A DNA stretch of 64,000 bases from Flavobacteriales bacterium (lineage in GTDB: Bacteria > Bacteroidota > Bacteroidia > Flavobacteriales_F > PHOS-HE28), in assembly GCA_016700415.1 (NCBI GenBank), contig CP065018.1, forward strand, positions 2,869,284-2,933,283, written 5' to 3'. Under the pieces are notes generated by a model, which searched no databases, had not been told where the DNA came from, and saw nothing but the letters and a program-made list of their open reading frames with translations. The position numbers and the translations under genes were made by a program. This document shows, one piece after another, positions 14,310 to 63,599 of this stretch. Position 1 is the first letter of the stretch. Every line of letters starts with the position of its first letter.

Positions 14310-14353
14310 CTTTCATGCTTGAGCCAACACAACATCGTTCCAACCCCGACCCC

Positions 14354-25790: not shown

Positions 25791-25877
25791 GCAAAGGTAC
25801 CGTGGTGTGGTCGGGACCGCCCGGACATTCTTCCGGCCCCTGTTATGGATGCCGGGGGATCCCCGAACTTCGCCTCC

Positions 25878-26450
25878 ATGAAGCCCGATGAAAAGGTGCG
25901 CTGTCCGTGGTGCCTGAAGGACGACATATACAAGCGTTATCATGATGAGGTCTGGGGCGTACCCGAGCATGACGACCGCAAGCTCTTCGCGAAGCTGATC
26001 TTGGATGGAGCGCAGGCGGGCCTGAGCTGGTATACCATTCTGATCCGTACGGAGAGCTATGCGAAGGCGTACAACAATTGGGACGCCAAAAAAGTCGCGC
26101 GCTATGGCGAGAAGGACGTTGAGCGCTTGATGAACGACGCAGGCATCATCCGCAACCGCTCCAAGATCATGGCCTCCATCAGTAATGCACAGGCGTATTT
26201 GAAGATCATGGAGGACGGCCCCGGCTCTTTCGATCGCTTCTTGTGGAAGCATGTACACGGCAAGACCAAGGTGAACAGGGTGAAGCAGATGAGCGATGTG
26301 CCTGTGTCCACGCCCGAAAGCGATGCCATGAGCAACGACCTGAAGAAGCATGGTTTCAAATTCACGGGCACCACCATCGTGTATGCGTTCATGCAGGCCT
26401 GCGGCATGGTGGACGACCATATGGTGACGTGCTGGAGAAAGAAGGGGTGA
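25878..26450 (+). CDS. tag: DNA-3-methyladenine glycosylase I
   Basis: Near-collinear with E. coli Tag (RCPWC..., YHDEVWGVPEHDDRKLF, GTTIVYAFMQACGMVDDH). Confidence 0.9.
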   Translation: MKPDEKVRCPWCLKDDIYKRYHDEVWGVPEHDDRKLFAKLILDGAQAGLSWYTILIRTESYAKAYNNWDAKKVARYGEKDVERLMNDAGIIRNRSKIMASISNAQAYLKIMEDGPGSFDRFLWKHVHGKTKVNRVKQMSDVPVSTPESDAMSNDLKKHGFKFTGTTIVYAFMQACGMVDDHMVTCWRKKG

Positions 26451-26455
26451 AGAAG

Positions 26456-27307
26456 ATGCGCACACCAGTGTCTCCTATACAGATCACACGCGTCGAACAT
26501 GGTTCGGCTACAGTGACCGATGATATCCTTGTCAGCGAAGAACCCTTGGAGATCCGCCTTGGCCATGGCCCGGAGGAGGACCGCAAGGAGATACAGCTGA
26601 GCGTAACCATGCGTACGCCGGGGAACGATGAGGAGCTGGCGATGGGATTTCTTTTCACCGAAGGCCTTGTCACGGACATGTCCCAAGTGCTGCGCGTGGT
26701 ACCGTGCGAGAACGTGAAGGAAGAGGAAAGGGGCAACGTAGTGCGTGTGGAACTTCATCCGGCCGTTGAGATAGAGCCTGCGAAGTGGCAGCGCAACTTC
26801 TACACCAGCAGCAGTTGCGGTGTATGCGGGAAGACCAGCATCGGCGCCGTGCATACGCAATGCGCACGGCCCATTGCCCCGTTCGGACCGATCGATCCGA
26901 AGGTGATCACCGCACTGCCCGGCCGCATGCGCGAAGCGCAGACCGTCTTCAAGCATACCGGAGGCATCCACGCGGCCGCACTTTTCGATCGCGAGGGTAA
27001 GCTGCTGATCCTGCGGGAGGACGTGGGCCGCCACAATGCCGTGGACAAGGTGATCGGAGCCTTGTTGCTGTCTACGCGCTCCCAGCCGGGGATCGGCCCC
27101 GGACAACTGACAACTGACAACTACCAACTCCTCGTAAGCGGCCGCGCCGGCTTCGAGCTCGTTCAGAAATGCCTCATGGCCGGAATTCCGATGATGGCCG
27201 CCGTGGGCGCACCTTCTTCATTGGCCGTACAGCTGGCGAAAAAAGGAGGGCTAACGCTGGTCGGCTTCCTGTCCGGGGAGCGCTTCAACGTCTACTCAGG
27301 CGGGTAG
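26456..27307 (+). CDS. fdhD: formate dehydrogenase accessory sulfurtransferase
   Basis: FdhD/NarQ family core, including the conserved cysteine in SSCGVCG and the GRHNAVDK motif. Confidence 0.85.
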   Translation: MRTPVSPIQITRVEHGSATVTDDILVSEEPLEIRLGHGPEEDRKEIQLSVTMRTPGNDEELAMGFLFTEGLVTDMSQVLRVVPCENVKEEERGNVVRVELHPAVEIEPAKWQRNFYTSSSCGVCGKTSIGAVHTQCARPIAPFGPIDPKVITALPGRMREAQTVFKHTGGIHAAALFDREGKLLILREDVGRHNAVDKVIGALLLSTRSQPGIGPGQLTTDNYQLLVSGRAGFELVQKCLMAGIPMMAAVGAPSSLAVQLAKKGGLTLVGFLSGERFNVYSGG

Positions 27308-34405: not shown

Positions 34406-35050
34406 TCACGCCGAAAGGGCCTCGAATTCGGGCACGCCGGTCTTGTGCATAAGGTGATCCCGCAGCACGCCCAACGCCCGTTCAAAATTGCTCTCGTTCA
34501 CCACGTGCAGGTCGCAATGGTTGCGATAGGGAAGGAGGTGCTCCCGGTAGGCGGGCATCACGTGGTTCTCCCACTGGTACAGCACGTCGGCCATGGCATA
34601 GCCGCGTTCACGGCCGTCCCGTGCGGTACGGCGGCTCAGCTGGATCTCCTCGCTGGCTTCCACGAACACCTTCAGGTCGAACAGCTCCCGCAGGCCGGGA
34701 TGTTGCAAAAGAAAAAGACCTTCCACCAAGATCACGCGCGCCGGGCGGATCTCCATCCAACGGGGCTCGGTGGCCATGTTGAAGTTGTATTCCTGGCGGT
34801 AAACCGCTTCTCCCGAGGCCAAGCAACGCAGGTCTTCGGCCAGCAGATCAAGGTCCAGCGCGCCGGGCAGATCGAAATTCACCTTGCCGTTGGCATCCTT
34901 CACCTGCTGCTCGATGGGCAGATAATAGTCGTCCTGGGATACGATGCACACACTTTCGGGGGGGAGCAGATCGCGGAGGGCGCGTACCAGGGTGGTCTTC
35001 CCCGATCCACTGCCTCCGGCCACACCAACTAGGTAGGCGCCGCGATGCAT
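34406..35050 (-). CDS. udk: uridine kinase
   Basis: P-loop GVAGGSGSGKTT. Start at the internal ATG at 35048-35050, matching E. coli Udk length. The upstream extension of the ORF is not supported. Confidence 0.85.
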   Translation of the reverse strand: MHRGAYLVGVAGGSGSGKTTLVRALRDLLPPESVCIVSQDDYYLPIEQQVKDANGKVNFDLPGALDLDLLAEDLRCLASGEAVYRQEYNFNMATEPRWMEIRPARVILVEGLFLLQHPGLRELFDLKVFVEASEEIQLSRRTARDGRERGYAMADVLYQWENHVMPAYREHLLPYRNHCDLHVVNESNFERALGVLRDHLMHKTGVPEFEALSA

Positions 35051-35475
35051 CGTCGCCAAATGTAGGGCGGGGAGGCTTTCCATGGAAGCCCGAAGAGGGG
35101 AAGCCCCTGAAATTCTCGCCGACATCCAGCAGGGACAAGACTTTCCGGGGTTTGGCATGGCATTGGCTTTGGGGTGAGCAAACCAATTCCCATCCCCGAT
35201 GAAACCCAATGCCGAACGTGCCCAAAAGCTGATGAACGCCGCCACCCGCATGATGATGGCCGGTGATGTGGAACGCTACCTGCACGCCTTGCGCCTGTTG
35301 TTCGCCTTGCGCATGCGGCCCGTGGCCATGGCCTGACCCTGCATCCGGTCAAAGCTTGGTGCGGCGGTGGGGTATTCCGCCACGTGCAAGGCTGAAATGC
35401 TCAATGCCGACGGGTACGGAAGGAAAATTTTCACCGGAATGGATCCTTTTGCCACGAGCTGCCGTTGAAAGTGCC

Positions 35476-35652
35476 ATGACGAAGAAGGACAAGATAGCCT
35501 TCATCAAGAGCAGCAAGCGCAAGTCGCATGTGTACAACGACCTGCAGCGGTACTCGGACCAACAGCTCGATGAGCTGATCCGGGAGATCGTGCAGGGGCT
35601 GGTAAGGGAAAGCGAGCTGATCGCCAACGCTTACATCAACGGCTACCGATGA
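35476..35652 (+). CDS. small hypothetical protein (58 aa)
   Basis: MTKKDKIAFIKSSKRKSHVYNDLQRYSDQQLDELIREIV... Lys-rich N-terminus with an amphipathic C-terminal helix. In frame within ORF 35263-35652. Confidence 0.3.
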   Translation: MTKKDKIAFIKSSKRKSHVYNDLQRYSDQQLDELIREIVQGLVRESELIANAYINGYR

Positions 35653-35771
35653 ACATGGCACTGGTGCTTCCCTCTTGACGGGGCTCAAAACGGACAGGTG
35701 GCAAGGCCTCGGCGAACAGCCGGGGCTTTCTCACGTTCAGTTGATCGTATGATCCTGCTCACACTGCGATC

Positions 35772-37421
35772 TCACCGATGCCTCTTCTGCTTCCCTACAG
35801 CTGGTGGAGGTGCACGCTTTACCGCCCCATCCTCATATTCCACCGTGGAGACCGCCTTGCCCGTGCCGTCGTACCTGGTCATGGTGCCGTCCAGTCGGCC
35901 GTTCCTGTAGTTCATCTCCTGAACGATGCGGCCCCTTCGGTCATACACGGTGCATTTGCCTTCCGGAGCGCCGTTCACAAAGCCTTGCACCCGTTGCTTG
36001 ACCCCGGCATCGTCATAGTAGGTCCATGGGCCGTTCGGGGTGCCTTTCACGTACATTCCCTCGCTCACAGGCACGCCGCGCACATTGTACACCTGCCAGT
36101 TGCCGCTCTTCAACCCGTCCGCGAAGCTGCCCACCTCATTCGGTTTTCCATTGTCGAACCAGCTTTTCCAAGGACCGTTCTTCGTGTTGTCCTTCCAGGT
36201 GGCCATATAGATCTGGGTGCCGTCGGGCAACCAGCCTTGCCAGATGCCGTCCATCTCTCCCAGTTTGAATGAGCCTTTGTCCTTTTGCTGCCCGTTCTCG
36301 AACCAGCTGTTCCATTCCCCTTCCTCCTTGCCGTTCACGTAATTGCCTTCCTGGAGTTTCTGGCCACTCTCGAACCAGGTGGTCCACTGGCCGTCTTTCT
36401 CTCCGTTCTTGAAGGTGCCGCGTTTCCAGTTCTGGCCTCCATCGTAGTAGTAGAGCCACTCGCCTTCCTGCTTGTCCGCCCGGTAGAGCCCGGTGGAGCT
36501 TAGCTGCCCATTGGGGTACCAATATTTCCAGAGCCCGTCCTGCAGGTCATTCTTGAAATGGCCGAGCATGTCGCGGTCGCCGGTGGCGGTGAACCAGGTC
36601 CAGGTACTGTCCCTTTTCCCTTCCCGGTAGAAGCCCTCGACATTCTCCTTGCCATCCGTGAACCACGCTGTGAAGGGGCCGTCCAGCTTGCCCTTGTTCC
36701 ATGTTTCACTCCGCTCATGAACGCTTTTGGAATACCAATGGTCCCATTTCCCGTGCTTCACGCCTCCGAGCCACAGACCTTTGGCCTTCAGGTTCCCAGC
36801 GGGCCAATATTCACGTTGCTCCCCACTATGTACGCCGAAATGGTAATGGCTCACCTCGGCGGTATCGCCGGTGGGGTAGTAGGTCCGGATCAACCCTTCC
36901 CCTTTCTTCAGTGTCTGCGTGCTGTCGCGGTCCCATGCGTCGAGGCTCAGGCAGATGCCCTTGCCCCAACGTTCGGTCAACAGGAGGTGCCCGCCCGGGT
37001 AATAGTAATTCCAGAGGCTGTCCTTCACGTCCTTCACATAGCTGCCTTCCTCCATCACCTGTCCGGTGCGGTAGTAGCTGTGCATCACGCTGTCCTGCTT
37101 GCCCTGGTGGATCCAACCATCATGCTGCACCTTGCCATTGTCGTAGAAGATCACCACGTGGCCGTCACGTTCGCCACTTTTGAAGTCGCTCTTTTCGGTC
37201 AGGCGGCCTTGGGTGTCCCAGAATTTCCATTCTCCCCATTCGCGTCCGTTCACCATCAGGCCCTCGCTCTTCTTCACCGTCTTCAGGCTGTCCCAATGGT
37301 CTACATAGGGCAGCACCGTCTGGGCTTGGGCGGGGGTGATGGTAGTGAGCCCCACGGCCAGCAAGATCACTTGGAGCAGGCGGTTGCCGGTAATGGTTGG
37401 AAGGGATGGTCGGACGATCAT
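35772..37421 (-). CDS. secreted MORN-repeat (YwqK-family-like) protein
   Basis: Signal peptide, then about 18 tandem ~23-aa repeats of the type G.W..(W|Y)..NGQ....G.Y..G...G.W. Confidence 0.8.
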   Translation of the reverse strand: MIVRPSLPTITGNRLLQVILLAVGLTTITPAQAQTVLPYVDHWDSLKTVKKSEGLMVNGREWGEWKFWDTQGRLTEKSDFKSGERDGHVVIFYDNGKVQHDGWIHQGKQDSVMHSYYRTGQVMEEGSYVKDVKDSLWNYYYPGGHLLLTERWGKGICLSLDAWDRDSTQTLKKGEGLIRTYYPTGDTAEVSHYHFGVHSGEQREYWPAGNLKAKGLWLGGVKHGKWDHWYSKSVHERSETWNKGKLDGPFTAWFTDGKENVEGFYREGKRDSTWTWFTATGDRDMLGHFKNDLQDGLWKYWYPNGQLSSTGLYRADKQEGEWLYYYDGGQNWKRGTFKNGEKDGQWTTWFESGQKLQEGNYVNGKEEGEWNSWFENGQQKDKGSFKLGEMDGIWQGWLPDGTQIYMATWKDNTKNGPWKSWFDNGKPNEVGSFADGLKSGNWQVYNVRGVPVSEGMYVKGTPNGPWTYYDDAGVKQRVQGFVNGAPEGKCTVYDRRGRIVQEMNYRNGRLDGTMTRYDGTGKAVSTVEYEDGAVKRAPPPAVGKQKRHR

Positions 37422-37768
37422 GCGGTCAAAAGTAGAAGCGTGCCGTGATCCATGCTCGGACCTAACGTGGAAGCATCAACGATGGTGTGCGGGAAAGTGA
37501 TGAGTGCGTCAATGTCCGCTCCGGGTTTGAACCCTGGATGGACACGGATGAACTCGGATGGGGAGCACATCATGGATGCATGCGGACAGTCACATTTGCG
37601 GGGACTTCTGTCAGGTAGAGTATTTCGTTGCGTGCCCTGCTGTTGAACCTCTGCTCTTGTGACTCTTTATCCGTGTTCATCCGTGGTTCTTTCAGGAAAA
37701 GGTCCGGGGTCGATCCGGCCCTGAACGACACATTTCAGGTTCAACCACGTATACCTTCGCCATCCGGA

Positions 37769-39721
37769 ATGCGCCGTTCCTCCCTTTTCCCTAAAAAGCT
37801 CCGTGTGATCACGGGGCTGGGCGTCTTGGTGCTGTTGCTCGTAGGCTGGTCCGCTGCGACCACCCCCGTGAAGGGCCCGCACAGCCCGTTGGAGCTGTCC
37901 ATTCTCCGCGAACAGATCCAAGGGCTCGATGTGCAATTCGGCACTTATTTCGTCACGGCGGGGCGCTGCTCCGGTTGCCATGGGCACGATTCGCTGGGCA
38001 TCGCCATGGTGGCCGGGGAGGGCGAGGATGTGAACGTGACCGACGACTGGCGCAGCAGCATGATGGCGAACAGCGCGCGCGACCCCTTCTTCTTAGCCAA
38101 GGTCGAGCACGAGGGCCTGGTATACCCCGGGCACAAGGAGGCGATCGAGCACAACTGCATGAAGTGCCATGCTCCGTTAGCGGTCTTTGAGCAGAAGATG
38201 CTGGGCAACCCGCCCTTCACCCTGGCACAGTACGATACGAGCGTGATGGCACAGGACGGGGTCTCCTGCTTGGCCTGCCACATGCAGAACCCGGATTCGG
38301 CGGGGCGCTTCTTTTCCGGGGATCTGCATTTCGACAGCGCACGTGTCTGGGGGCCGTACACCCAGGACCAGATCAACCCGGACATCATGCAGTACTTCGT
38401 GGGCTTTACGCCGGACCAAGGTTCGCACATCCTCGACGGCCGTGTCTGTGCCGGATGTCACACGGCGATCAACAGGACCTTGGACCTCGAAGGCAACTTT
38501 ACGGGAGGGTATTTCTACGAGCAGACCATGTGGCAGGAATACGAGAATTCGATCTACTTCGGAACAGAGCAGAACTGCCGCAGCTGCCACATGCCACGGA
38601 TCCAGGACTCCATCGTGCTGGCATCGGAGTACATCTTCCTGAGCGGCCAATCGCCCTTCGGCAAACACCACCTCGCGGGCGGCGGCAATTTCATGTTGAA
38701 GCTGATGAAGAGCCACATCAGCACACTGGGCATCCCGGCCACGACCGCCCAGTTCGACAGTACCATCGCACGCACCCAGTACCAGCTGGAACATGCCTTG
38801 GAACTGCATACGGAGGTCGCGGAACGCACGGACGACACCGTCTTCGTGGACGTACACCTCACCAACATCATCGGCCACAAGATCCCCAGCGGTTTCCCGA
38901 ACCGGCGTGCGTTCGTGCAAGTGATCGCGCTCACCGCCACCGGCGACACCCTCTTCCAAAGCGGCCGATGGGACGGGACCTACGAGGTGTACGGGCACGA
39001 CGCGGACTATGAGCCGCACCACGATGTGATCACCCAGGGCGACCAAGTGCAGATCTATGAGTTCGTGATGGGGGACGTGAACGGTGATGTGACCCGTGTC
39101 CTCAATCGCGCGGCGATACGGGTGAAGGACAACCGCCTTGTGCCGATCGGCTACAGCACTTCACATTTCAGCTATGACACCACGGCGATCGCGGGCCGGG
39201 CATTGACCGACCCGGACTTCAACCACGATGCCGGCGGTGTGGAGGGCAATGGCGGCGATATCGTCCATTACCACATCGCGACCAACGGATACGCGGGGGC
39301 GGTGCATGTGACGACGAAAGTGTTCTACCAGCAGGTGCCGCCCTTGTGGAATTCGGAGATGTTCAACCTCCACGGACCGCGGATCGACACGTTCCGCACG
39401 ATGTATGACAATGCCGATGGCACCCCGGACCTGATGGCGACGGATTCGCTGACGGATATCGGAACGGGTATCCACGCTGCACGGTACATCGCCGCACAGG
39501 TTTTCCCGAATCCCACGCGCGACGGCTTCGTGCTGATCACCATGCCGGAGACCACCAAGGTCATCGCCTACGATGCCGGGGGCAAGCGTGTGCCGCTGAG
39601 AACATCGCGACACGGCGATGGCTGGCGTTGCGAACTTCCTGAGCAGGTCGGCGTGTATCACTTGGTGATCACGACACCGCAGGGTGATCGCATGGTACGT
39701 GTGGTGCGGACCGCGCCATGA
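37769..39721 (+). CDS. secreted pentaheme c-type cytochrome with a T9SS C-terminal sorting domain
   Basis: Signal peptide/anchor MRRSSLFPKKLRVITGLGVLVLLLVGWSAA. Five CxxCH motifs (CSGCH, CMKCH, CLACH, CAGCH, CRSCH). The terminal ~75 aa, VFPNPTRDGFVLI...GVYHLVITTPQGDRMVRVV, match the type-A T9SS CTD. Confidence 0.8.
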   Translation: MRRSSLFPKKLRVITGLGVLVLLLVGWSAATTPVKGPHSPLELSILREQIQGLDVQFGTYFVTAGRCSGCHGHDSLGIAMVAGEGEDVNVTDDWRSSMMANSARDPFFLAKVEHEGLVYPGHKEAIEHNCMKCHAPLAVFEQKMLGNPPFTLAQYDTSVMAQDGVSCLACHMQNPDSAGRFFSGDLHFDSARVWGPYTQDQINPDIMQYFVGFTPDQGSHILDGRVCAGCHTAINRTLDLEGNFTGGYFYEQTMWQEYENSIYFGTEQNCRSCHMPRIQDSIVLASEYIFLSGQSPFGKHHLAGGGNFMLKLMKSHISTLGIPATTAQFDSTIARTQYQLEHALELHTEVAERTDDTVFVDVHLTNIIGHKIPSGFPNRRAFVQVIALTATGDTLFQSGRWDGTYEVYGHDADYEPHHDVITQGDQVQIYEFVMGDVNGDVTRVLNRAAIRVKDNRLVPIGYSTSHFSYDTTAIAGRALTDPDFNHDAGGVEGNGGDIVHYHIATNGYAGAVHVTTKVFYQQVPPLWNSEMFNLHGPRIDTFRTMYDNADGTPDLMATDSLTDIGTGIHAARYIAAQVFPNPTRDGFVLITMPETTKVIAYDAGGKRVPLRTSRHGDGWRCELPEQVGVYHLVITTPQGDRMVRVVRTAP

Positions 39722-39836
39722 TGCCGACCACGATCGCTTCCATCAGCACTCCGCTCAAACTCATGCGGGTCATTGGGTGTTCCACTGAAAGGCAGAGCCT
39801 CTTGTTCCCCTATCTTTACAGCACAAGGCCATACCC

Positions 39837-40043
39837 ATGAAAGAGATCATTTTTCTGGTTGAGGAATCCCCCGAAGGCGGTTTGGAGGCCAAGGCATTGG
39901 ACCATTCAATTTTCACCGATGGTGCGGACCTTAAGGAGTTGGAGGCAAATGTCCGCGATGCCTTGATCTGCCATTTTGAGGACAGCGAGCGCCCGAAGGT
40001 GGTGCGCTTACACATGGTGAAGGAAGTGGTGTTCGCTGCATGA
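39837..40043 (+). CDS. hicB: HicB-family antitoxin (UPF0150)
   Basis: 68 aa, RNase-H-like HicB N-domain pattern (IIFLVEESPEGGLEAKALDHSIFTDGADLKELEANVRDAL). Overlaps hicA by 4 nt. Confidence 0.65.
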   Translation: MKEIIFLVEESPEGGLEAKALDHSIFTDGADLKELEANVRDALICHFEDSERPKVVRLHMVKEVVFAA

Positions 40044-40288
40044 GGATTCCACGCGACCTCGACGGTAGGGAGTTGATCGCCGCCCTTGGGAAACTGGGTT
40101 ATGAGGTCACTCGACAGAGCGGCAGCCATATTCGTTTGACGACCTCCCGCAACGGTGTCCATCACATCACTATCCCGGAACACCGCCCACTGAAGGTGGG
40201 GACATTGTCCGCAATATTGCGTGATGTCGCCGTCCATCATAGCCTGAGCAGGGATGCTCTGATGGCCTCGCTCTTCAGTAAGACCTGA
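40040..40288 (+). CDS. hicA: HicA-family mRNA interferase toxin
   Basis: YcfA/HicA motif ...GSHIRL... with a conserved His, dsRBD-like size (82 aa). Confidence 0.72.
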   Translation: MRIPRDLDGRELIAALGKLGYEVTRQSGSHIRLTTSRNGVHHITIPEHRPLKVGTLSAILRDVAVHHSLSRDALMASLFSKT

Positions 40289-40352
40289 ATGTGAACCGGC
40301 AATTGCGGGAGCGATGACCTCGATCCGTAAGGCTGACCCCGGTTCTTCTTCC

Positions 40353-41153
40353 ATGACATCGCCCACCACGCTCGCTTCCATCCACATCTACCCGGTCAAA
40401 TCCTTAGGTGGATTTTCTGTTCCGGACATACGCTTGACGGACAGAGGTTTGGAGCACGATCGCCGCTGGATGCTGATCGATCCCGATGGCCGGTTCCTGT
40501 CGCAACGGGAATGCCAGGCCATGGCATGCCTGCATTGCGCAGCGCACGGTAACGGGTTCCGTGTCACCGATGTGCGGAATGGGAATACGGTCGATGTACC
40601 GTGGTCTCTTCAGGAGGCGGAACGCGTCAAGGCCAAAGTCTGGGACGATGATGTAGACCTGATGCTCGGCCCTGCTTTCATGCATCAATGGTTCAGCGAA
40701 ACCCTGCAACGCCCGGTGCGACTGGCCTACATGCCAGACAGTACGGTGCGCACCACGGACCCGACCTACGCCGATGTCCCCGTGGCGCTCAACGACGGTT
40801 ATCCGTCCCTGATCATTTCGCAAGCCTCGTTGGACGACCTCAATGCGCGGCTGGGAACACCGGTGCGGATGGACCGCTTTCGCCCCAACTTCGTAATTAC
40901 AGGCGGCGCGCCGTTCCAAGAGGATGATTGGAAAACCATCATCATCGGCGAGACGCACTTCAACATCGTGAAACCCTGCGCGCGTTGCGTCATCATCACC
41001 ACGGACCAGCGAACGGGCGAGCGCTCGAAAGAGCCCTTGCGAACGTTGGCCACCTTTCGCTCCGTGGGGAACAAGGTGCGTTTTGGGATGAATGCGACAT
41101 TTGCTGAAATGGGGACGATCCATGTCGGTGTCCCCGTGCAGGTGAACGCATGA
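40353..41153 (+). CDS. MOSC domain-containing protein (YcbX-like, Moco-dependent)
   Basis: MOSC N-terminal beta-barrel (IHIYPVKSLGG) and MOSC domain with the conserved cysteine (VKPCARCVIITTDQRTGER). Confidence 0.8.
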   Translation: MTSPTTLASIHIYPVKSLGGFSVPDIRLTDRGLEHDRRWMLIDPDGRFLSQRECQAMACLHCAAHGNGFRVTDVRNGNTVDVPWSLQEAERVKAKVWDDDVDLMLGPAFMHQWFSETLQRPVRLAYMPDSTVRTTDPTYADVPVALNDGYPSLIISQASLDDLNARLGTPVRMDRFRPNFVITGGAPFQEDDWKTIIIGETHFNIVKPCARCVIITTDQRTGERSKEPLRTLATFRSVGNKVRFGMNATFAEMGTIHVGVPVQVNA

Positions 41154-41938
41154 TCCACGCGATACTCAACGATAAGGCCACGCGCCTCTATATCATCCTC
41201 GGCTCCTTCTTTGTGGCCAGCGCCATCGTCGCGGAGATGATCGGTGTGAAACTCTTCCAGTTGGAGACCGCGCTTGGCATCGACAAGGCGGATTTCACCT
41301 TGTTGGGCCAGCATCATTTGTCCTTCGTGCTCAGCGTGGGCGTGCTGCCGTGGCCCATCATCTTCATCATGACCGATGTGATCAACGATTACTTCGGTGT
41401 GCGCGGCGTACGCTTCCTCACCTTGATCACTGCGGGATTGATCGCCTTCACGTATGTCCTGATGTGGTTCGCCATCCACATGCCCCCGGACCTCGGCTGG
41501 TGGATGACGAGTAGCGCAGGTCAAGGCGTACCGGACATGCAGGCGGCGTTCAAGAGCATCTTCGGGCAGGGCAACAACATCATCATCGGTTCACTTACGG
41601 CTTTCATCATCGGGCAGCTTGTGGACGCGAGCATCTTCCGCAGGCTCAAGCGCATCACTGGTGACAGGCGCATTTGGCTGCGCGCCACCGGCAGCACGCT
41701 CATCAGCCAGCTCATCGACAGCGTTGTGGTGACCTACGTGGCGTTCTGGCTCTTCAAGGGCATGCCTTTCGCGCAATGCACCGCGTTGGTGATCACGGCA
41801 TACAGCTATAAATTCGTCGTTGCCCTTTTGTCCACTCCGGTGATCTACCTCGTTCATGCGAGCGTGGAGCGCTATGTGGGGAAGGAACGCGCGCACGCCA
41901 TGCGGGAGGCCGCGATGGTGCTGAGGGCCGACCAGTGA
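41150..41938 (+). CDS. yhhQ: queuosine-precursor transporter (YhhQ/DUF165, VUT family)
   Basis: Six TM helices with a VUT-family conserved tract (IIGSLTAFIIGQLVDASIF...LISQLIDSVVVTYVAF). ATGA overlap with the MOSC gene stop. Confidence 0.65.
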   Translation: MIHAILNDKATRLYIILGSFFVASAIVAEMIGVKLFQLETALGIDKADFTLLGQHHLSFVLSVGVLPWPIIFIMTDVINDYFGVRGVRFLTLITAGLIAFTYVLMWFAIHMPPDLGWWMTSSAGQGVPDMQAAFKSIFGQGNNIIIGSLTAFIIGQLVDASIFRRLKRITGDRRIWLRATGSTLISQLIDSVVVTYVAFWLFKGMPFAQCTALVITAYSYKFVVALLSTPVIYLVHASVERYVGKERAHAMREAAMVLRADQ

Positions 41939-41942
41939 ACCG

Positions 41943-42923
41943 CTATTCGGCGGGTGACCAGTACTCCACCTTCGTTGCCACGGCGGGTACCGTGCGTAGG
42001 TGGTCGTAGATCGCGCCTAGGTCCTGCTCGGTCATGCCGGCGTACATCATCCAAGGCATCACTGTTTGGAAGTCTCCTGCTTTCCAGTCGATCGGGGCAG
42101 GCACGTAGCTGCTGTCCGCGAACTGCTTGAACTTGCGGATGAAGGTCGCCTTGTCCCATTCGCCGATGCCGTTCACCGGATCCGGTGTGATATTGGAGGA
42201 GCGTAAGGTGGCGCCGTTCGGGAAGCGGAACTCGAATCCGCCGGCGAAGGGCTCGCCCACCATCTTGCCCTTTTCCTGCTTGGTGTGGCATTCGCGGCAG
42301 CCTGCGGCATTGGTGATGTACGCGCCGTACCCCGGGTCCGTGAGCTTTGGCAGCGGCACGGGGTGCGCCGGTTCCGGGATGGTGTGCAGAATGATGTTCA
42401 TCGGGAAGTCCGCCTTGGAATCCCCGGGGTGGCTCTCGATGGACGGCAACGAACGCACATAGGCAATGATGCTGTACACGTCCTCCGTCGCCAGTTTGCT
42501 GTAGTAGAGATAGGGCATCACCGGGAAGAAGGCGCGGCCATCCTTATCCACCCCACTGGTGATCGCACGGTATATCTCCCCGTCGCTCCAGCCCTTCAGG
42601 TTGAACGGGGTGATGTTCTTTGCCACGAAACTACCGGGGAAACCCATGGTCTGGTCGAACATCTCGCCTCCCTTCCCCAGCGTGCCGGGCTCCGGTGGTG
42701 CGGCGAATTTGTTCCAGTCGCGGGTGCTGTGGCAGTCCATGCAGACCGCTACATGGTTGGCTAAGTATTCCCCCCGGGCCAAGCGCTCCGGTGTTAGCTC
42801 CACATGCAGGTCTTTAGGCACCGGAATGTCCGGAAGGGCCTGTGTGATGTAGGTGAGGCCACCGATGATGATGAGCACCAGCACGGCCAACAGAATGCCG
42901 ATGACCTTCAGGAACTTTTTCAT
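41943..42923 (-). CDS. membrane-anchored dihaem c-type cytochrome
   Basis: N-terminal TM anchor, two CxxCH motifs (CMDCH, CRECH), ~326 aa. Confidence 0.8.
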   Translation of the reverse strand: MKKFLKVIGILLAVLVLIIIGGLTYITQALPDIPVPKDLHVELTPERLARGEYLANHVAVCMDCHSTRDWNKFAAPPEPGTLGKGGEMFDQTMGFPGSFVAKNITPFNLKGWSDGEIYRAITSGVDKDGRAFFPVMPYLYYSKLATEDVYSIIAYVRSLPSIESHPGDSKADFPMNIILHTIPEPAHPVPLPKLTDPGYGAYITNAAGCRECHTKQEKGKMVGEPFAGGFEFRFPNGATLRSSNITPDPVNGIGEWDKATFIRKFKQFADSSYVPAPIDWKAGDFQTVMPWMMYAGMTEQDLGAIYDHLRTVPAVATKVEYWSPAE

Positions 42924-43010
42924 GTTATTGTGGTTTGCGAAGCGAAAACTAATTTCAGCGAGAGCGGAAATGCAACTGTCGAGGTGGTTGTGTCGCAATT
43001 TTGCAGTGTC

Positions 43011-43178
43011 ATGGCGAAGAAGCGCATCACCAAGAAAGAGCTCCTACAGATCGAGCAAGCCGCCGTGCGTGAAGAGCGCAAGGAGCAAGGGGCGCTGGAC
43101 GGGCGCTTCCGGGAGAAGGTGGAGAAAAGCAAGAAGTCCTATACGCGCACGACCAAGCACAAGAAGAAGGGGCCGTGA
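43011..43178 (+). CDS. small highly basic hypothetical protein (55 aa)
   Basis: MAKKRITKKELLQIEQAAVREERKEQ...KHKKKGP. Sits in the 300-bp gap between two minus-strand genes. Confidence 0.3.
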   Translation: MAKKRITKKELLQIEQAAVREERKEQGALDGRFREKVEKSKKSYTRTTKHKKKGP

Positions 43179-43223
43179 GCACTTATACCGCCTTGCGGGG
43201 TGCCTTGATCACAAAGGAATGAT

Positions 43224-43622
43224 CTATTTGAGCGTAGTGCCGACCGCGCCGTACCACGGATGGATCTCATACTTCAACCGGCCGGCCTTCACGAACGGGT
43301 CCATCCGGAGGTAGCCTTCGACCTCCTCACGGGAATCGCAATCGTAAAGCAGCAACCCTCGCCAGTCGCCATCATCACCGAATGGCCCTGCCATTTGTAT
43401 CAAGCCCCGTTCCGCCTGCTCTTCCTGATGTTCCAAATGCTGTTTCAGCGTGAGCGCGGAAGTGGCACTGTCCAATGGCGGCGCATCGCCGCTAGTGTAC
43501 AGCACGAACCAGTACTGTTTCATGTGGTAGGTGCTGTCGGCGATCGTCACATCGAAGGTGCGTTGTGCATAGGAAGCGCAGCTAAGGAGCAACGATAGGA
43601 GGATGCTTGCCGTTAAGCGCAT
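43224..43622 (-). CDS. secreted YciI-like (Dabb/stress-responsive alpha+beta barrel) domain protein
   Basis: Signal peptide MRLTASILLSLLLSCASYAQ. The C-terminal tract ...MAGPFGDDGDWRGLLLYDCDSREEVEGYLRMDPFVKAGRL... resembles the YciI family. Confidence 0.55.
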   Translation of the reverse strand: MRLTASILLSLLLSCASYAQRTFDVTIADSTYHMKQYWFVLYTSGDAPPLDSATSALTLKQHLEHQEEQAERGLIQMAGPFGDDGDWRGLLLYDCDSREEVEGYLRMDPFVKAGRLKYEIHPWYGAVGTTLK

Positions 43623-43894
43623 GTCAGGGTCGTTCGGTCAAATGTCCCAATGTGGTGAAGTGTGGTAAAAGTAATCGCGACACATCAAGGTGCCTCTTTG
43701 GCGTGGGGGGATGTGGAGGTCTATTGGCCGGGTCGGACCTGCCCCTGTCCAATGGACTTGCCGATCCACCTTCCGTGATCAACCAACATTTCGGACTGAA
43801 CGCAGTGGTGAACGCATCTGCCCACTTCTTCCAACTTCGCGGTTGGCGCATATTGGGATAAGTAAATGGCCGCACAAAACGCGACCTTTGCACC

Positions 43895-44989
43895 ATGAAC
43901 GCCAAGCCCATCGACCTTCGTGAACTTTCCAAGGAGGAGGTCATAGCCCTCGTTGCCGAGCTGGGCGAGAAGCCTTACCGCGCCGCGCAGGTGTGGGAGT
44001 GGTTGTGGAAGACGCATGCGCCCTCGATCGAGGCGATGAGCAATCTTTCCAAAGACTTCCGGGCGAAGTTGGCCGAGCGAGCCGTATTGCGCCCACTGGT
44101 GATCGCCGAGCAGCAGAAGAGCGACGACGGCACCATCAAATGTGCTTTCCGCACATGGGACGGCCACATCGTGGAAGGTGTGCTGATCCCCACGGAAAAG
44201 CGCATCACAGCCTGCGTCAGCTCGCAGATCGGGTGCAGCCTGGATTGTGACTTCTGCGCCACGGGCAGGCTGAAGCGTGTGCGCAACCTGAGCGCAGGCG
44301 AGATCGTGGACCAAGTGGTGCAGATCGCACGCTTGGCCGAGGAGCATCTCAAGCGCCCGCTCACCAACATCGTGTACATGGGCATGGGCGAGCCGCTGCT
44401 GAACTATACCAACACCATGCGCAGCGCCGAGCGCATCAACGCGGAGGACGGCCTGGGCATGAGCTACCGCCGGATCACGGTGAGCACTGCGGGCCTCGCC
44501 AAGCAGATCCGCGAACTCGGTGATGACGGGGCCAAGTTCAATCTCGCCCTTTCGTTGCACGCCGCCACTGATGAGAAGCGCAGTAGCCTGATGCCGATCA
44601 ACGACACCAACAACCTGGAGGAGCTGCTTTCCGCGCTGCGCCACTACACGCGCCTCACACGCAAGGACATCACGTTCGAGTACATCCTCTTCCGGGACTT
44701 CAACGACTCGCTTGAGGACGCGCGTGATCTGGTGCGCCTCTGCAGCAAAGTGGACGCCAAGGTGAACCTGATCGAGTACAACGCCACCGATGACGGGCGT
44801 TTCCAGCGCACACCGATCGAGCAGGCCTTGAAGTTCCAGAACTATTTGGAGAGCAAGGGCATCACGACGCGCATCCGCCGCAGTCGCGGTCGTGACATCG
44901 ACGCGGCCTGCGGACAGTTGGCCAACAAGAACGAGCCGGCGGTGAAGGGCGGGGAACGGGTGATGAAGTCGGCGGTTACAAAGGATTAG
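43895..44989 (+). CDS. rlmN: 23S rRNA (adenine2503-C2)-methyltransferase / tRNA m2A37 methyltransferase
   Basis: Radical-SAM CSLDCDFCATG cluster, and conserved RlmN N-terminal (YRAAQVWEWL) and C-terminal Cys motifs. Confidence 0.9.
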   Translation: MNAKPIDLRELSKEEVIALVAELGEKPYRAAQVWEWLWKTHAPSIEAMSNLSKDFRAKLAERAVLRPLVIAEQQKSDDGTIKCAFRTWDGHIVEGVLIPTEKRITACVSSQIGCSLDCDFCATGRLKRVRNLSAGEIVDQVVQIARLAEEHLKRPLTNIVYMGMGEPLLNYTNTMRSAERINAEDGLGMSYRRITVSTAGLAKQIRELGDDGAKFNLALSLHAATDEKRSSLMPINDTNNLEELLSALRHYTRLTRKDITFEYILFRDFNDSLEDARDLVRLCSKVDAKVNLIEYNATDDGRFQRTPIEQALKFQNYLESKGITTRIRRSRGRDIDAACGQLANKNEPAVKGGERVMKSAVTKD

Positions 44990-51517: not shown

Positions 51518-52894
51518 TCAACGCACCATCAACCGCTGCGTCGGAACGCTCTTGCTGCCGACGAGCTTCACGGTATAGGCGCCAGGGGCCAAGGGGGTGA
51601 GGTCCAGCACCTCGCGAACGGACGTGCCGGTCCCGTTCAATGCCCGACGCAGCACGATCTTCCCGTTCACATCGGAAAGTTCGATGAACTGCTCCTTGCC
51701 GGGATGCATGCGCTCGATCACCACCACCACCTTGTCCGTGGCCGGGTTCGGGGCAAGGCGCATGAGGTCGCCGGTGCTTGATCCGCCGGAGATCCCCAAG
51801 GTACAGGGAGGGCCGTTCAGGGTGACGGCGACATAGGCGGTGTCCGCAGGGCAGGGGGGTGTTTCGACCACGTAGCGGTAGACGCCTGCACCGAACGTGG
51901 AGACATCGACCGGCTGGTCAAAAAAAGTGATCCCTGCTCCGTTCGGTTCATACCAAATGCCTGTTATATCCTCGCCGGTGACGTAGTTGCTGAGGTTGGC
52001 GGCCGTTTCGTCAAAGCAAAAGACAGCAGGGCTTCCGACGCCGGGGTTGGACGGAGGAGCACCGACCACGGTCACGGTCGCGGACGGGTTGGAACAAGGC
52101 GGGGTCCCGGTGACATGGTACACGTATTGACCCGGTTGGCTCGTGCCCGGGATGAAGATGCCGGTGGTATTCGGTCCGGTCCATGTTCCACCGGGGTTCG
52201 GGGTGCCGCCCAGCTGTGTGAACAGGTTCACTGGCGGGGCCCCGGGGGCGGTGCAAAGGGTAACGCTGGCGTTCACACCGGCCGACGTGTTGGGGTTGTA
52301 CGTGATATAAAGGGATTGGTATTCCGCAATGCACGGCGCGGGAATGTCGAAGTAGTACTGATAGTCCCCCGCGATGCTCGTGCCCGGCACGAACATGCCG
52401 TTGGGCACGGGTTGGAGCACGGGGTTGAGCCACAGACCTCCGGGGTCGGGCGATCCGCCCAGACGGGAGAGAAGTGGGAAGGGTGCGTCATTCGGGCATA
52501 CCGCGATCTCGGTATAATTGCCCACATTGGGTGGATCGGCCGGAAGGACCGTAAAGTTGCCCGTCCAAGTGTCCGTGATCACAGTGCCGAACTTCAAGCT
52601 GACGGTCAAGGCATAGGTTCCCTCGTTGTACGGCCCGATGGGCCCGATGGGCTGGTTGAAGGAAGAGGATCCATTGCCGGCACTGACAGTGGCGACCAGA
52701 GTAACGCTGTTGGCCGTGTTGGAGGTTTGGACGAATGTGAAGCTCAGGCCCGGCGCACCTGTGCCCATCACATGGTAAGTGGCCCGCTCGCAAGCATGCA
52801 GCGGCGAGGGGGCAATGGTCACATTGGTGATCTGCTGGGCCTGAACAAAGCAGGCCGAGAGGAAGAAGGAGGAAAGGAACAGGGTGTGCCGCAT
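51518..52894 (-). CDS. T9SS C-terminal-domain secreted protein with Ig-like/SprB-like repeats
   Basis: Signal peptide. Repeated LGG(S/T)P(D/N)PGG(L/T)W modules, several CxxxC segments, and a C-terminal LAPNPATDKVVVV...GAYTVKLV type-A CTD. Confidence 0.75.
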   Translation of the reverse strand: MRHTLFLSSFFLSACFVQAQQITNVTIAPSPLHACERATYHVMGTGAPGLSFTFVQTSNTANSVTLVATVSAGNGSSSFNQPIGPIGPYNEGTYALTVSLKFGTVITDTWTGNFTVLPADPPNVGNYTEIAVCPNDAPFPLLSRLGGSPDPGGLWLNPVLQPVPNGMFVPGTSIAGDYQYYFDIPAPCIAEYQSLYITYNPNTSAGVNASVTLCTAPGAPPVNLFTQLGGTPNPGGTWTGPNTTGIFIPGTSQPGQYVYHVTGTPPCSNPSATVTVVGAPPSNPGVGSPAVFCFDETAANLSNYVTGEDITGIWYEPNGAGITFFDQPVDVSTFGAGVYRYVVETPPCPADTAYVAVTLNGPPCTLGISGGSSTGDLMRLAPNPATDKVVVVIERMHPGKEQFIELSDVNGKIVLRRALNGTGTSVREVLDLTPLAPGAYTVKLVGSKSVPTQRLMVR

Positions 52895-63186: not shown

Positions 63187-63203
63187 CTTCACCCTATGTT
63201 CGT

Positions 63204-63599
63204 TCACCGGTTCAGCGCAGGGCCGCAGTTGCATGCCTGGGGATCCAAATGCTTGAATTGGCCGCTAGGGGCGAGGGGTCCGCGCTTGAAGCAGTGTGCG
63301 CTCACCCCGAATGGCTGGATGAGGGTGTTTATAGCGCCCAGGTCAAGCGTGCATTCCGGCAAGGCATGGATCAGCAGGTTCTTCGTGTACATATCGGTCC
63401 TGCTCATCACTACGTTAGGCTGGGCCGCCAACACCGCATTGATCTCGGCTGCGTGTTGTGGCGAAACGATACCCGTGATCACCGCTTGGATCTGGTCCAC
63501 CTGACAATGGCTGGCGGGGGAGAAGGTGATGACGCATACCACTAGGAGCGCCATCCTCAGCACCGCTGCGGACCATCGACGCGAATATCTACTGGCCAT
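63204..63599 (-). CDS. hypothetical secreted protein
   Basis: N-terminus MASRYSRRWSAAVLRMALLVVCVITFSPASHCQ looks like a signal peptide. No recognised domain. The solo hairpin repeat lies 42 bp upstream. Confidence 0.4.
   Translation of the reverse strand: MASRYSRRWSAAVLRMALLVVCVITFSPASHCQVDQIQAVITGIVSPQHAAEINAVLAAQPNVVMSRTDMYTKNLLIHALPECTLDLGAINTLIQPFGVSAHCFKRGPLAPSGQFKHLDPQACNCGPALNR

What the first reader, a model, noticed from the sequence alone, without database searches (positions are those of the whole stretch)
37769..39721. Pentaheme c-type cytochrome carrying a T9SS C-terminal sorting domain
Five CxxCH motifs (CSGCH, CMKCH, CLACH, CAGCH, CRSCH) sit in a ~650-aa protein whose last ~75 residues form a type-A Por/T9SS sorting domain (VFPNPTRDGFVLI...VYHLVITT...VRVV). 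T9SS cargo is delivered to the cell surface or released, so this predicts an extracellular or surface-attached multihaem cytochrome in a Bacteroidota-type cell. That combination is unusual; T9SS cargo is normally made up of hydrolases and adhesins. It suggests extracellular electron transfer, extracellular redox chemistry, or haem/iron handling. A membrane dihaem cytochrome c (41943-42923) lies 2 kb downstream, and a secreted MORN-repeat protein is divergent upstream.
Basis: partly seen in the sequence, partly recalled or inferred. Interest (0 to 1): 0.72.

Follow-up and report, generated by a model that had tools for sequence, protein, structure and literature searches.

The report
Five-haem cytochrome exported by T9SS
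This gene encodes a five-haem electron-carrying protein with an address tag that Bacteroidota use to send proteins to the cell surface; such a pairing has not been described in the literature I could search, it recurs in hundreds of uncultured species, and its job outside the cell is unknown.

The parts
37769..39721 (+). Complete gene for the 650-aa pentahaem cytochrome with T9SS tail (stop codon 39719-39721)
   Evidence: ORF and translation; more than 1,143 homologues of about 650 aa; AF2 model with pLDDT 93.9 and pTM 0.83
37769..37861 (+). N-terminal Sec-type signal peptide (residues ~1-31: basic n-region, hydrophobic VITGLGVLVLLLVGW, then S-A-A/T)
   Evidence: Kyte-Doolittle maximum 2.08 at residue 13 and no other hydrophobic segment; pattern conserved in orthologues. 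The cleavage site is inferred, not predicted with a dedicated tool
37931..38773 (+). Alpha-helical five-haem cap domain (residues ~55-335)
37967..37981 (+). Haem 1 binding motif CSGCH (residues 67-71)
   Evidence: 100% conserved in 126 family representatives
38156..38170 (+). Haem 2 binding motif CMKCH (residues 130-134); the equivalent haem is the catalytic one in MccSep
   Evidence: MccSep haem numbering from bioRxiv 10.1101/2025.11.18.688581
38267..38281 (+). Haem 3 binding motif CLACH (residues 167-171)
38447..38461 (+). Haem 4 binding motif CAGCH (residues 227-231)
38576..38590 (+). Haem 5 binding motif CRSCH (residues 270-274)
38792..39463 (+). Enlarged Ig-like beta-sandwich domain (residues ~342-565) carrying family-invariant H370, H417, Y430, K453-D454-N455-R456
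   Evidence: AF2 secondary structure; conservation; matches the 5ZE8 and MccSep Ig-like domain
38873..38911 (+). Conserved loop G369-H-K-I-P-S-G-F376-P-N-R-R-A381, the counterpart of the MccSep active-site loop GHSIPDG-U325-P; the Sec position is Phe here and Tyr in most of the family
   Evidence: Residue-level alignments to 9WT8 and 5ZE8; G369, H370, P373 and R379 are 100% conserved
39464..39499 (+). Flexible linker between core and tail (residues 566-577), the expected region of CTD removal
   Evidence: pLDDT drops to 60-76, and below 50 at residues 568-570; cleavage is inferred from knowledge of T9SS
39500..39718 (+). Type A T9SS C-terminal sorting domain (residues 578-650; motifs PNPTRDG, GVYHLVI, MVRVVR)
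39718..39840 (+). Remnant duplicate of the MOSC gene 5' end, still overlapping the cytochrome stop codon (ATGA)
   Evidence: Sequence and alignment with the intact MOSC start and with L001 and L003; called as a 40-aa ORF on other contigs
39837..40288 (+). Inserted two-gene module: a 68-aa ORF (39837-40043, no family hit, placed like an antitoxin) plus HicA toxin (40040-40288). It splits the ancestral cytochrome-MOSC pair
   Evidence: HicA_toxin 54.9 bits; absent from orthologous loci L001, L003 and L010-L018
40353..41153 (+). MOSC_N + MOSC domain gene (cytoplasmic type, no signal peptide). In close orthologues it overlaps the cytochrome stop by 4 nt
   Evidence: Pfam; overlaps 9962/9965 in L001 and 9944/9947 in L003; adjacent only in orthologues at >=52% identity
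14315..17155 (+). FG-GAP_3 + UnbV_ASPIC + Ig_7 + T9SS-CTD protein (946 aa). It is the homologue of the gene that lies directly beside the cytochrome in 26 other Bacteroidota genomes
   Evidence: Pfam and NCBIfam; 37% identity over 960 aa to the L041 partner, E 1.8e-156; neighbour clustering; partner domains

Best explanation
The gene encodes a pentahaem c-type cytochrome of the c552/MccSep (ExtKL) superfamily that is a cargo of the type IX secretion system. Proposed course, with each step marked. (1) A Sec signal peptide takes the apoprotein to the periplasm (shown by sequence only). (2) Five haems are attached at the five invariant CxxCH motifs by the host's cytochrome c maturation system (inferred). 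(3) The protein folds into a helical five-haem cap and an enlarged Ig-like beta-sandwich (shown by a high-confidence model that matches 5ZE8). (4) The type A C-terminal domain is recognised by the T9SS translocon, the folded holoprotein crosses the outer membrane, and the tail is cut off in the flexible linker. The roughly 58-kDa cytochrome is then either anchored to the cell surface or released (inferred from the sorting signal; not tested). (5) Outside the cell it acts as a short, branched five-haem relay. Its working end is probably the pocket between haem 2 and the beta-sandwich loop G369-H-K-x-P-x-G-(F/Y)-P-x-R-R, which is the position of the catalytic centre in MccSep. It would exchange electrons with a soluble extracellular substrate or a partner surface protein, rather than serve as the end of a dedicated trans-outer-membrane wire. 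It is not a polysulfide reductase of the MccSep type, because the haem-ligating Cys and the Sec/Cys are both missing. A His-to-Met change at a position that is His in c552 (M99), together with the invariant M207, suggests at least one His/Met, higher-potential haem. That would suit an aerobic host.
Against: No experiment shows export of any cytochrome by T9SS. The query's own tail is below the curated TIGR04183 cutoff and is not reported by Pfam. T9SS machinery genes were not found in the parts of the window I annotated, and the rest of the genome was not examined. If the protein is outside the cell with no conduit, its electron source is unexplained. Six conserved candidate distal ligands (M99, M207, H220, H300, H370, H417) for five haems allow every haem to be six-coordinate, which would argue against an open catalytic haem. 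The closest structural relative, 5ZE8, has no known function, so homology gives no substrate. The two recurring neighbours (a cytoplasmic MOSC protein and an FG-GAP/ASPIC propeller) point to no single chemistry.
Confidence: 0.62

Rival explanations
1. It is the outward-facing terminal cytochrome of an extracellular electron transfer chain, working like MtrC/OmcA. Anchored on the surface after T9SS export, it would receive respiratory electrons through an outer-membrane conduit encoded elsewhere and pass them to minerals, humics, electrodes or other cells (or run in reverse).
For: The targeting pattern parallels surface cytochromes such as the lipoprotein MtrC, with T9SS tails, long-linker lipoproteins and other anchor domains. 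Another branch of the same superfamily, PtdA, is encoded beside a porin and a periplasmic decahaem protein in a porin-cytochrome-like operon. Pfam Mtrc-MtrF_II-IV_dom scores 32.3 bits against a cutoff of 30.
Confidence: 0.17
2. It is a self-contained extracellular haem enzyme, for example a peroxidase-like or small-anion oxidoreductase, that uses one haem as a catalytic centre. Both of its substrates would be outside the cell, such as H2O2 plus Fe(II), Mn(II), phenolics or humics. This is a sharper form of the best explanation.
For: It is homologous to a true enzyme, MccSep. The loop that supplies the distal Cys in MccSep has no standard haem ligand here but carries the invariant E251-Q252 pair. 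Invariant Arg, Lys, His and Tyr residues lie in the beta-sandwich loop that covers the MccSep active site. The gene is solitary, as with stand-alone multihaem enzymes. T9SS cargo are typically enzymes (background knowledge).
Against: H417 or M207 could supply the sixth ligand of haem 2, leaving no open site. No CxxCK or other catalytic-haem signature is present. No activity is known for the closest relative, c552. The PQQ-dehydrogenase fusions fit a relay domain at least as well.
Confidence: 0.25
3. It is a periplasmic cytochrome whose tail is a decayed or repurposed beta-sandwich. The protein would never leave the periplasm and would serve ordinary respiratory or detoxifying electron transfer, like the tail-less relatives.
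For: The query tail scores below the curated cutoff and Pfam misses it. About 45% of family representatives have no tail, and many of these appear to be plain periplasmic proteins. Both characterised relatives, MccSep and c552, are periplasmic or soluble (c552 from background knowledge). T9SS CTDs share a generic Ig-like fold.
Against: The tail keeps the PNP-x-x-DG, G-x-Y and terminal basic-hydrophobic motifs across orthologues. A tail-only HMM picks out exactly the three above-cutoff CTDs among 540 window ORFs, each at the extreme C-terminus. Orthologues and cluster representatives pass the cutoff. The predicted fold superposes at 1.9-2.4 A on CTDs captured in the translocon. Tail and lipobox rarely co-occur, as expected for alternative targeting devices.
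Confidence: 0.08
4. It is a haem or iron handling protein: a secreted ferric reductase for iron uptake, or a haem store or carrier, rather than part of energy metabolism.
For: In one orthologous locus a VIT1-family iron/manganese transporter follows cytochrome-MOSC. The T9SS cargo HBP35, a haemin-binding protein, is the second Foldseek hit.
Against: The HBP35 match has low TM scores (0.13 normalised to the query, 0.24 to the target), compatible with a match confined to the shared sorting-domain fold. VIT1 is replaced by a Na/Ca exchanger in another orthologous locus and is absent here. Orthologue upstream regions share no conserved box apart from a promoter-like motif. Covalently bound haem c is not exchangeable (background knowledge).
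Confidence: 0.05

Closest known systems
Low-potential pentahaem cytochrome c552 of Thermochromatium tepidum (PDB 5ZE8)
   Different: c552 is a 435-aa chain with no T9SS tail. Its beta-sandwich region is shorter (about 160 residues after chain position ~277, against ~225 here). It has His where this family has M99, and a Cys in the loop after haem 4 that this family lacks. Its host is a purple sulfur gammaproteobacterium. Its function is unknown.
MccSep / ExtKL (GSU2937-2936), the multihaem cytochrome c selenoprotein polysulfide reductase of Geobacter sulfurreducens (PDB 9WT8; bioRxiv 10.1101/2025.11.18.688581)
   Same: Same two-domain plan: a five-haem cap and an Ig-like stem whose loop reaches haem 2. 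The family profile hits it at E 6e-7. The loop GH-x-x-P-x-G-X-P aligns residue for residue. NCBIfam NF040886 hits 27 of 30 members locally.
   Different: The defining Sec/Cys (U325) is Phe/Tyr here. The haem-2 ligand C239 has no counterpart. NF040886 scores 28 bits against a cutoff of 250. MccSep is periplasmic, homotetrameric and found in Desulfobacterota and Nitrospirota. This protein is T9SS-tagged and found in Bacteroidota.
[quoted passage not shown]
   Same: It is described as a c552 homologue with the same pentahaem plus beta-sandwich plan, and its gene context suggests a role at or beyond the outer membrane.
   Different: PtdA is encoded with a porin, a tetrahaem and a decahaem protein in Proteobacteria, Nitrospirales and Planctomycetes. 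This family is solitary or paired with MOSC or FG-GAP/ASPIC genes and uses T9SS. No PtdA sequence was available for direct comparison.
MtrC/OmcA outer-surface decahaem cytochromes of Shewanella
   Same: They are multihaem c-type cytochromes delivered to the outer face of the outer membrane by a dedicated secretion route and a membrane anchor. The analogy is in localisation logic only.
Canonical T9SS type A cargo (e.g. RgpB, mirolase, F. johnsoniae NucA and FspA)
   Different: Known cargo are hydrolases, adhesins and motility proteins. Six full-text searches found no cofactor-loaded multihaem cytochrome reported as cargo.

Membership tests
Multihaem c-type cytochrome | Several CxxCH haem-attachment motifs, conserved across homologues and set in a cytochrome fold | tested here: met
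Multihaem c-type cytochrome | Covalent haem actually bound | not testable with these tools
   Needs haem staining or mass spectrometry of the protein
c552/MccSep (ExtKL) pentahaem + Ig-like superfamily | Five-haem helical cap followed by an Ig-like beta-sandwich, with significant sequence and structural similarity | tested here: met
c552/MccSep (ExtKL) pentahaem + Ig-like superfamily | Conserved loop G-H-x-x-P-x-G-x-P from the Ig-like domain | tested here: met
   G369, H370, P373 and R379 are invariant, P377 is 99% conserved, and G375 is invariant among close orthologues. The loop aligns with both PDB sequences
MccSep family proper (polysulfide reductase; NCBIfam NF040886) | Conserved Sec or Cys at the U325 position | tested here: not met
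   U325 aligns with F376, which is Tyr in most of the family. There is no conserved Cys outside the CxxCH motifs
MccSep family proper (polysulfide reductase; NCBIfam NF040886) | Cys distal ligand of haem 2 (C239) | tested here: not met
   C239/C240 align with the loop T245-Q252 (TGGYFYEQ), which has no Cys, His or Met
MccSep family proper (polysulfide reductase; NCBIfam NF040886) | Score above the curated equivalog cutoff | tested here: not met
   28.4 bits against a cutoff of 250; local hit to residues 352-400 only
T9SS type A cargo | C-terminal domain matching TIGR04183 / PF18962 at the extreme C-terminus | tested here: met
   The query alone is sub-threshold (19 against 23 bits; profile positions 1-70 of 72). 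At family level it is met: 25/30 orthologues, P0121 at 39.7 bits and 43/62 diverse tails. A reciprocal HMM finds only the window's three above-cutoff CTDs
T9SS type A cargo | CTD fold (a roughly 70-residue beta-sandwich) as in solved cargo CTDs | tested here: met
T9SS type A cargo | N-terminal Sec signal peptide | tested here: inconclusive
   A basic n-region, a 15-residue hydrophobic core and an S-A-A site are visible, but no dedicated predictor was available and a signal-anchor cannot be excluded
T9SS type A cargo | Host encodes T9SS machinery (SprA, PorV, PorU, GldKLMN) | not tested
   None was found among the window ORFs I annotated, and the rest of the genome was not examined. Indirect support comes from three other above-cutoff CTD proteins in the 64 kb and the Bacteroidota affiliation
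T9SS type A cargo | T9SS-dependent export and CTD removal | not testable with these tools
   Needs fractionation in wild type against T9SS mutants
MtrC/OmcA outer-membrane decahaem cytochromes | Full-length match to the family models and the staggered-cross decahaem fold | tested here: not met
NrfA pentahaem nitrite reductase | CxxCK active-site haem and a match to the NrfA models | tested here: not met
NapC/NirT/TorC membrane quinol dehydrogenases | Match to PF03264 with an N-terminal membrane anchor and a tetrahaem core | tested here: not met
   PF03264 scores 15.6 bits against a cutoff of 24.1; the fold is c552-type

The most novel reading that the evidence does not exclude
Bacteroidota and other FCB-group bacteria use the type IX secretion system to place haem-loaded multihaem cytochromes on their surface. 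This would be a previously unrecognised, widespread route to extracellular redox chemistry. In many lineages the cytochrome would work as a two-protein surface module with a co-encoded, T9SS-exported FG-GAP/ASPIC beta-propeller, with the propeller binding a solid or polymeric substrate and the cytochrome moving electrons to or from it. Possible uses include oxidative attack on biopolymers or humics, or mineral redox exchange. The arrangement would be analogous to dehydrogenase-cytochrome fusions, and the GSDH-pentahaem fusions in the same family fit that analogy.
Probability: 0.25. Interest if true: 0.85.

Novelty: new variant of a known kind. Interest (0 to 1): 0.66.

Why it matters
T9SS cargo lists are dominated by hydrolases, adhesins and motility proteins. 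A cofactor-loaded five-haem cytochrome would extend what the system is known to transport. It would also mean that abundant, mostly uncultured Bacteroidota of wastewater, freshwater and marine habitats carry surface redox proteins that current extracellular-electron-transfer surveys, which look for Mtr, Omc or porin-cytochrome modules, would miss. The core module is a very large uncharacterised branch (4,201 clusters at 50% identity) of a superfamily with one solved structure of unknown function and one enzyme characterised only in 2025. A function found here would therefore annotate thousands of genes. The hypothesis is directly testable by haem staining and proteomics of surface and secreted fractions in wild type against T9SS mutants, or by tail-swap reporters in Flavobacterium johnsoniae.

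Tried and rejected

(2) MccSep-type polysulfide reductase. Rejected because the Sec/Cys and the haem-ligating Cys are absent.

(3) The first AF2 run on 30 close orthologues gave an unusable haem domain (pLDDT 62.8). It was replaced by a run on 104 diverse sequences (pLDDT 93.9).

(4) Functional linkage to the downstream dihaem cytochrome c, the MORN protein, Vut_1 and MOSC. These neighbours occur only in orthologues at 52% identity or more, which also share housekeeping synteny, so they count as weak evidence. The 4-nt cytochrome-MOSC overlap is real, but the MOSC protein looks cytoplasmic and the pairing is absent elsewhere.

(5) PtdA-like porin-cytochrome context for the lipoprotein members. 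Not found.

(6) Regulatory clues. Rfam found nothing meaningful in 35000-44000. Upstream regions of 11 orthologues share only a TAnnTT(T/G)G-like promoter element 10-18 nt before the ATG, with no conserved Fur- or FNR-type box evident by inspection. The exact TANNTTTG pattern is not enriched in the window.

(7) The 205-aa minus-strand ORF 39770-40387 is probably spurious, because the region is occupied by the plus-strand HicA-type module.

(8) Literature. Six full-text searches pairing multihaem or c-type cytochromes with T9SS found nothing relevant. The primary 5ZE8 paper is not held. No function is known for bacterial FG-GAP/UnbV proteins.

(9) Geometric assignment of distal haem ligands was not possible, because model coordinates are not exposed.
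Full report
OBSERVATION. Window 37769-39721 (+) is an uninterrupted ORF of 650 codons. It contains CSGCH, CMKCH, CLACH, CAGCH and CRSCH at residues 67, 130, 167, 227 and 270. Ten of its eleven cysteines lie in these motifs. Composition-preserving shuffles give a mean of 0.007 CxxCH per sequence, with a maximum of 2 in 20,000. A longer ORF from TTG 37628 is possible, but every homologue starts at the ATG position. The N-terminus has a basic stretch, one hydrophobic segment (VITGLGVLVLLLVGW) and an S-A-A site. No other hydrophobic segment exists. The window has about 60% G+C throughout.

THE TAIL. On its own, the query's tail is borderline. TIGR04183 aligns over profile positions 1-70 of 72 but scores 19 bits against a cutoff of 23, and Pfam PF18962 does not report it. 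Four independent tests settle the matter.
- 25 of 30 orthologues hit TIGR04183 at E<=0.01 (best 1e-7), and NCBI's pipeline already names several of them 'T9SS type A sorting domain-containing protein'.
- The tail of the nearest 50%-identity cluster representative scores 39.7 bits, and 43 of 62 tails from diverse family representatives match (best 1.8e-12).
- An HMM built only from this family's tails, searched against all 540 stop-to-stop ORFs of the window, finds (after itself) the extreme C-termini of three proteins and nothing else below E = 0.3. All three carry tails above the curated cutoff: 14315-17155 at 38.2 bits, 61270-63234 at 33.1 bits and 51518-52894 at 33.2 bits.
The orthologues conserve the PNP-x-x-DG, G-x-Y and terminal R-x-x-R motifs. 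A low-confidence linker (residues 566-577) separates core and tail.

THE CORE. Family-library hits to MtrC/MtrF, c7, c3, NapC/NirT, NrfA and c554 are short, sit on CxxCH motifs and are mostly below cutoff. The informative hits are weak local matches to NCBIfam ExtKL (NF040886) and to PDB 5ZE8 and 9WT8. A 30-sequence profile raised 5ZE8 to E 2e-5. A 104-sequence profile spanning several phyla raised it to 1.7e-12 and MccSep to 6e-7.

WHAT IS AND IS NOT CONSERVED. In 126 representatives, all five CxxCH motifs are invariant. Outside them, H370 and H417 are 100% conserved, H300 99%, M207 100%, M99 94% and H220 87%. No cysteine is conserved.

MccSep catalysis needs U325 and the haem-2 ligand C239. 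U325 aligns with F376 (Tyr in most of the family) in the otherwise conserved loop G-H-K-x-P-x-G-X-P-x-R-R. C239/C240 align with a ligand-free loop, T245-Q252. The protein is therefore not an MccSep-type polysulfide reductase.

M99 aligns with a His of c552 (SMHAKS against SSMMANS). This suggests a His-to-Met ligand swap and a higher-potential haem; that is an inference. Many polar residues are invariant or nearly so across phyla: E251, Q252, E257, K371, R379, R380, Y430, and K453-D454-N455-R456. Six candidate distal ligands for five haems leave open whether any haem has a free coordination site.

SIZE AND ARCHITECTURES OF THE FAMILY. An exhaustive profile search finds 4,201 clusters (50% identity) at E<=1e-3 and 866 at <=1e-30. 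The shared core is profile positions ~50-560. Among 126 full-length representatives:
- 69 have a C-terminal extension of 55 residues or more, and almost all of these have a plain signal peptide.
- 57 have none. Of these, 29 have a lipobox (24 with N-terminal linkers of 60 residues or more) and about 20 look like plain periplasmic proteins.
- Other tails include the Solibacter C-terminal domain, thrombospondin-repeat or dockerin-like segments, and a Gly-rich/TM/basic tail.
- Two clusters fuse a PQQ-type glucose/sorbosone dehydrogenase, one with an F5/8 type C carbohydrate-binding domain, to the N-terminus of the module.
T9SS-tailed members occur in Flavobacteriales and Calditrichia. A scan of species-representative genomes found at least 570 genomes with a relative. 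The best 80 are all Bacteroidota MAGs: Flavobacteriales, Cryomorphaceae, Crocinitomicaceae, Saprospiraceae, Lewinellaceae, Chitinophagales and Bacteroidales. No cultured carrier was evident. The exact window protein occurs in 94 assembly blocks.

GENE CONTEXT. In the window the neighbours are housekeeping genes (YicC, Gmk, a nucleotidyltransferase, uridine kinase, RlmN, polyprenyl synthase, DnaG), plus a divergent MORN_2 protein, a MOSC gene, Vut_1 and a membrane dihaem cytochrome c.

In orthologues at 52% identity or more, the cytochrome stop overlaps the MOSC start by 4 nt. In the window this junction has been split by a 68-aa ORF plus a HicA toxin gene. A 40-codon duplicate of the MOSC 5' end still overlaps the cytochrome stop. 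The MOSC/Vut_1/MORN synteny vanishes below 48% identity.

An unbiased clustering of neighbours in 80 loci shows something else. In 26 loci from several orders, a 950-1,050-aa FG-GAP_3 x6 + UnbV_ASPIC + Ig_7 protein with a strong T9SS tail (59 bits) lies beside the cytochrome. In 17 of these it is on the same strand, downstream, within about 120 nt. The window's 14315-17155 protein is its homologue (37% identity over 960 aa, E 1.8e-156), 20.6 kb upstream of the cytochrome gene.

No porin, decahaem or other conduit gene appears near the cytochrome in any locus, including Calditrichia and the lipoprotein members. A distant branch of the superfamily, PtdA, does sit in a porin-multihaem cluster. 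Neither Rfam nor upstream alignment gave regulatory clues.

INTERPRETATION. Shown: a five-haem c552/MccSep-type fold; a type A T9SS sorting domain; a host that uses such domains; and a family in which T9SS tails, lipid anchors and other surface devices alternate on one conserved core. Inferred: Sec export; periplasmic haem attachment; T9SS translocation of the folded holoprotein; tail removal; and surface attachment or release.

On function, I favour a short extracellular redox relay or enzyme. It would use the haem 2 / beta-sandwich pocket and exchange electrons with soluble substrates or partner surface proteins. Four observations point that way: the gene is solitary, no conduit is nearby, the pocket is strongly conserved, and the module is fused to extracytoplasmic dehydrogenases. 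An MtrC-like terminal cytochrome role remains possible (about 0.17). A vestigial tail is unlikely (about 0.08).

NOVELTY. No paper in the searchable library links multihaem or c-type cytochromes with T9SS. Automated annotation already labels relatives with one feature or the other, but the combination, its breadth and its superfamily assignment appear undescribed. I class it as a new variant of a known kind: a c552/MccSep-superfamily cytochrome that lost the Cys/Sec chemistry, enlarged its beta-sandwich and gained a T9SS address.

Noticed in passing
window 39718-40352: A two-gene module (a 68-aa ORF at 39837-40043 with no family hit, plus a HicA toxin gene at 40040-40288, Pfam 54.9 bits) is inserted exactly at the ancestral cytochrome-MOSC junction. 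A roughly 120-nt duplicate of the MOSC 5' end (39718-39840) still overlaps the cytochrome stop as ATGA. The insertion is absent from orthologous loci. It may uncouple MOSC translation from the cytochrome.
   Followed up: partly
window 14315-17155 (+); L041:8006-11143 and 25 other loci: A T9SS-tagged FG-GAP_3 x6 + UnbV_ASPIC + Ig_7 beta-propeller protein is the immediate neighbour of the cytochrome in 26 Bacteroidota genomes spanning several orders, usually downstream on the same strand with gaps from -1 to about 100 nt. In this window its homologue (37% identity over 960 aa) lies 20.6 kb away. No function is known for bacterial members.
   Followed up: partly
P0184 (941 aa) and P0197 (1142 aa), relatives from the representative search: Two separate clusters fuse a PQQ-type glucose/sorbosone dehydrogenase (GSDH) to the N-terminus of the pentahaem core. 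P0197 also has an F5/8 type C carbohydrate-binding domain and a Gly-rich/TM/basic C-terminal tail. This suggests the module serves as an electron-accepting domain of extracytoplasmic sugar dehydrogenases.
   Followed up: partly
window 51518-52894 (-), 61270-63234 (-), 14315-17155 (+): Three further proteins with T9SS type A tails above the curated cutoffs lie in the same 64 kb. Two of them (458 aa and 654 aa) have no other recognisable domain.
   Followed up: partly
window 41943-42923 (-): A membrane-anchored dihaem cytochrome c (CMDCH and CRECH; TM helix at residues 26-50 of the long ORF). It is conserved downstream of the cytochrome-MOSC-Vut_1 group in several orthologous loci (L003, L014, L015, L087). 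Its role and any link to the pentahaem protein are unknown.
   Followed up: partly
L003 and L020 (both MAG CADEDY01); L086 and L089 (both MAG PKEB01): Some Bacteroidota MAGs carry two paralogues of the T9SS-tailed pentahaem cytochrome, about 46% and 54% identical to the query in one MAG. The family has therefore diversified within genomes.
   Followed up: no
window 37750-37759 and the equivalent position in 9 orthologous loci: The only conserved upstream element is a TAnnTT(T/G)G-like motif 10-18 nt before the ATG (TATACCTTCG here). It resembles the Bacteroidota -7 promoter element and would imply a very short leader. The divergent MORN gene has an exact TACTTTTG at 37427-37434.
   Followed up: partly
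L001:6203-7849: In one orthologous locus (GCA_009612815.1), a 548-aa PQQ_2-type beta-propeller gene lies immediately upstream of the cytochrome on the same strand, and a VIT1-family transporter follows MOSC. Neither is present in the window.
   Followed up: no
window 881-3403 (-) and 24792-26465 (-): A bifunctional MurF / alanine racemase fusion (NF008897, 993 bits). Also a MoaA ORF whose MoaA match begins only at residue 231 of 557, so either the start is mis-set or there is an N-terminal extension.
   Followed up: no
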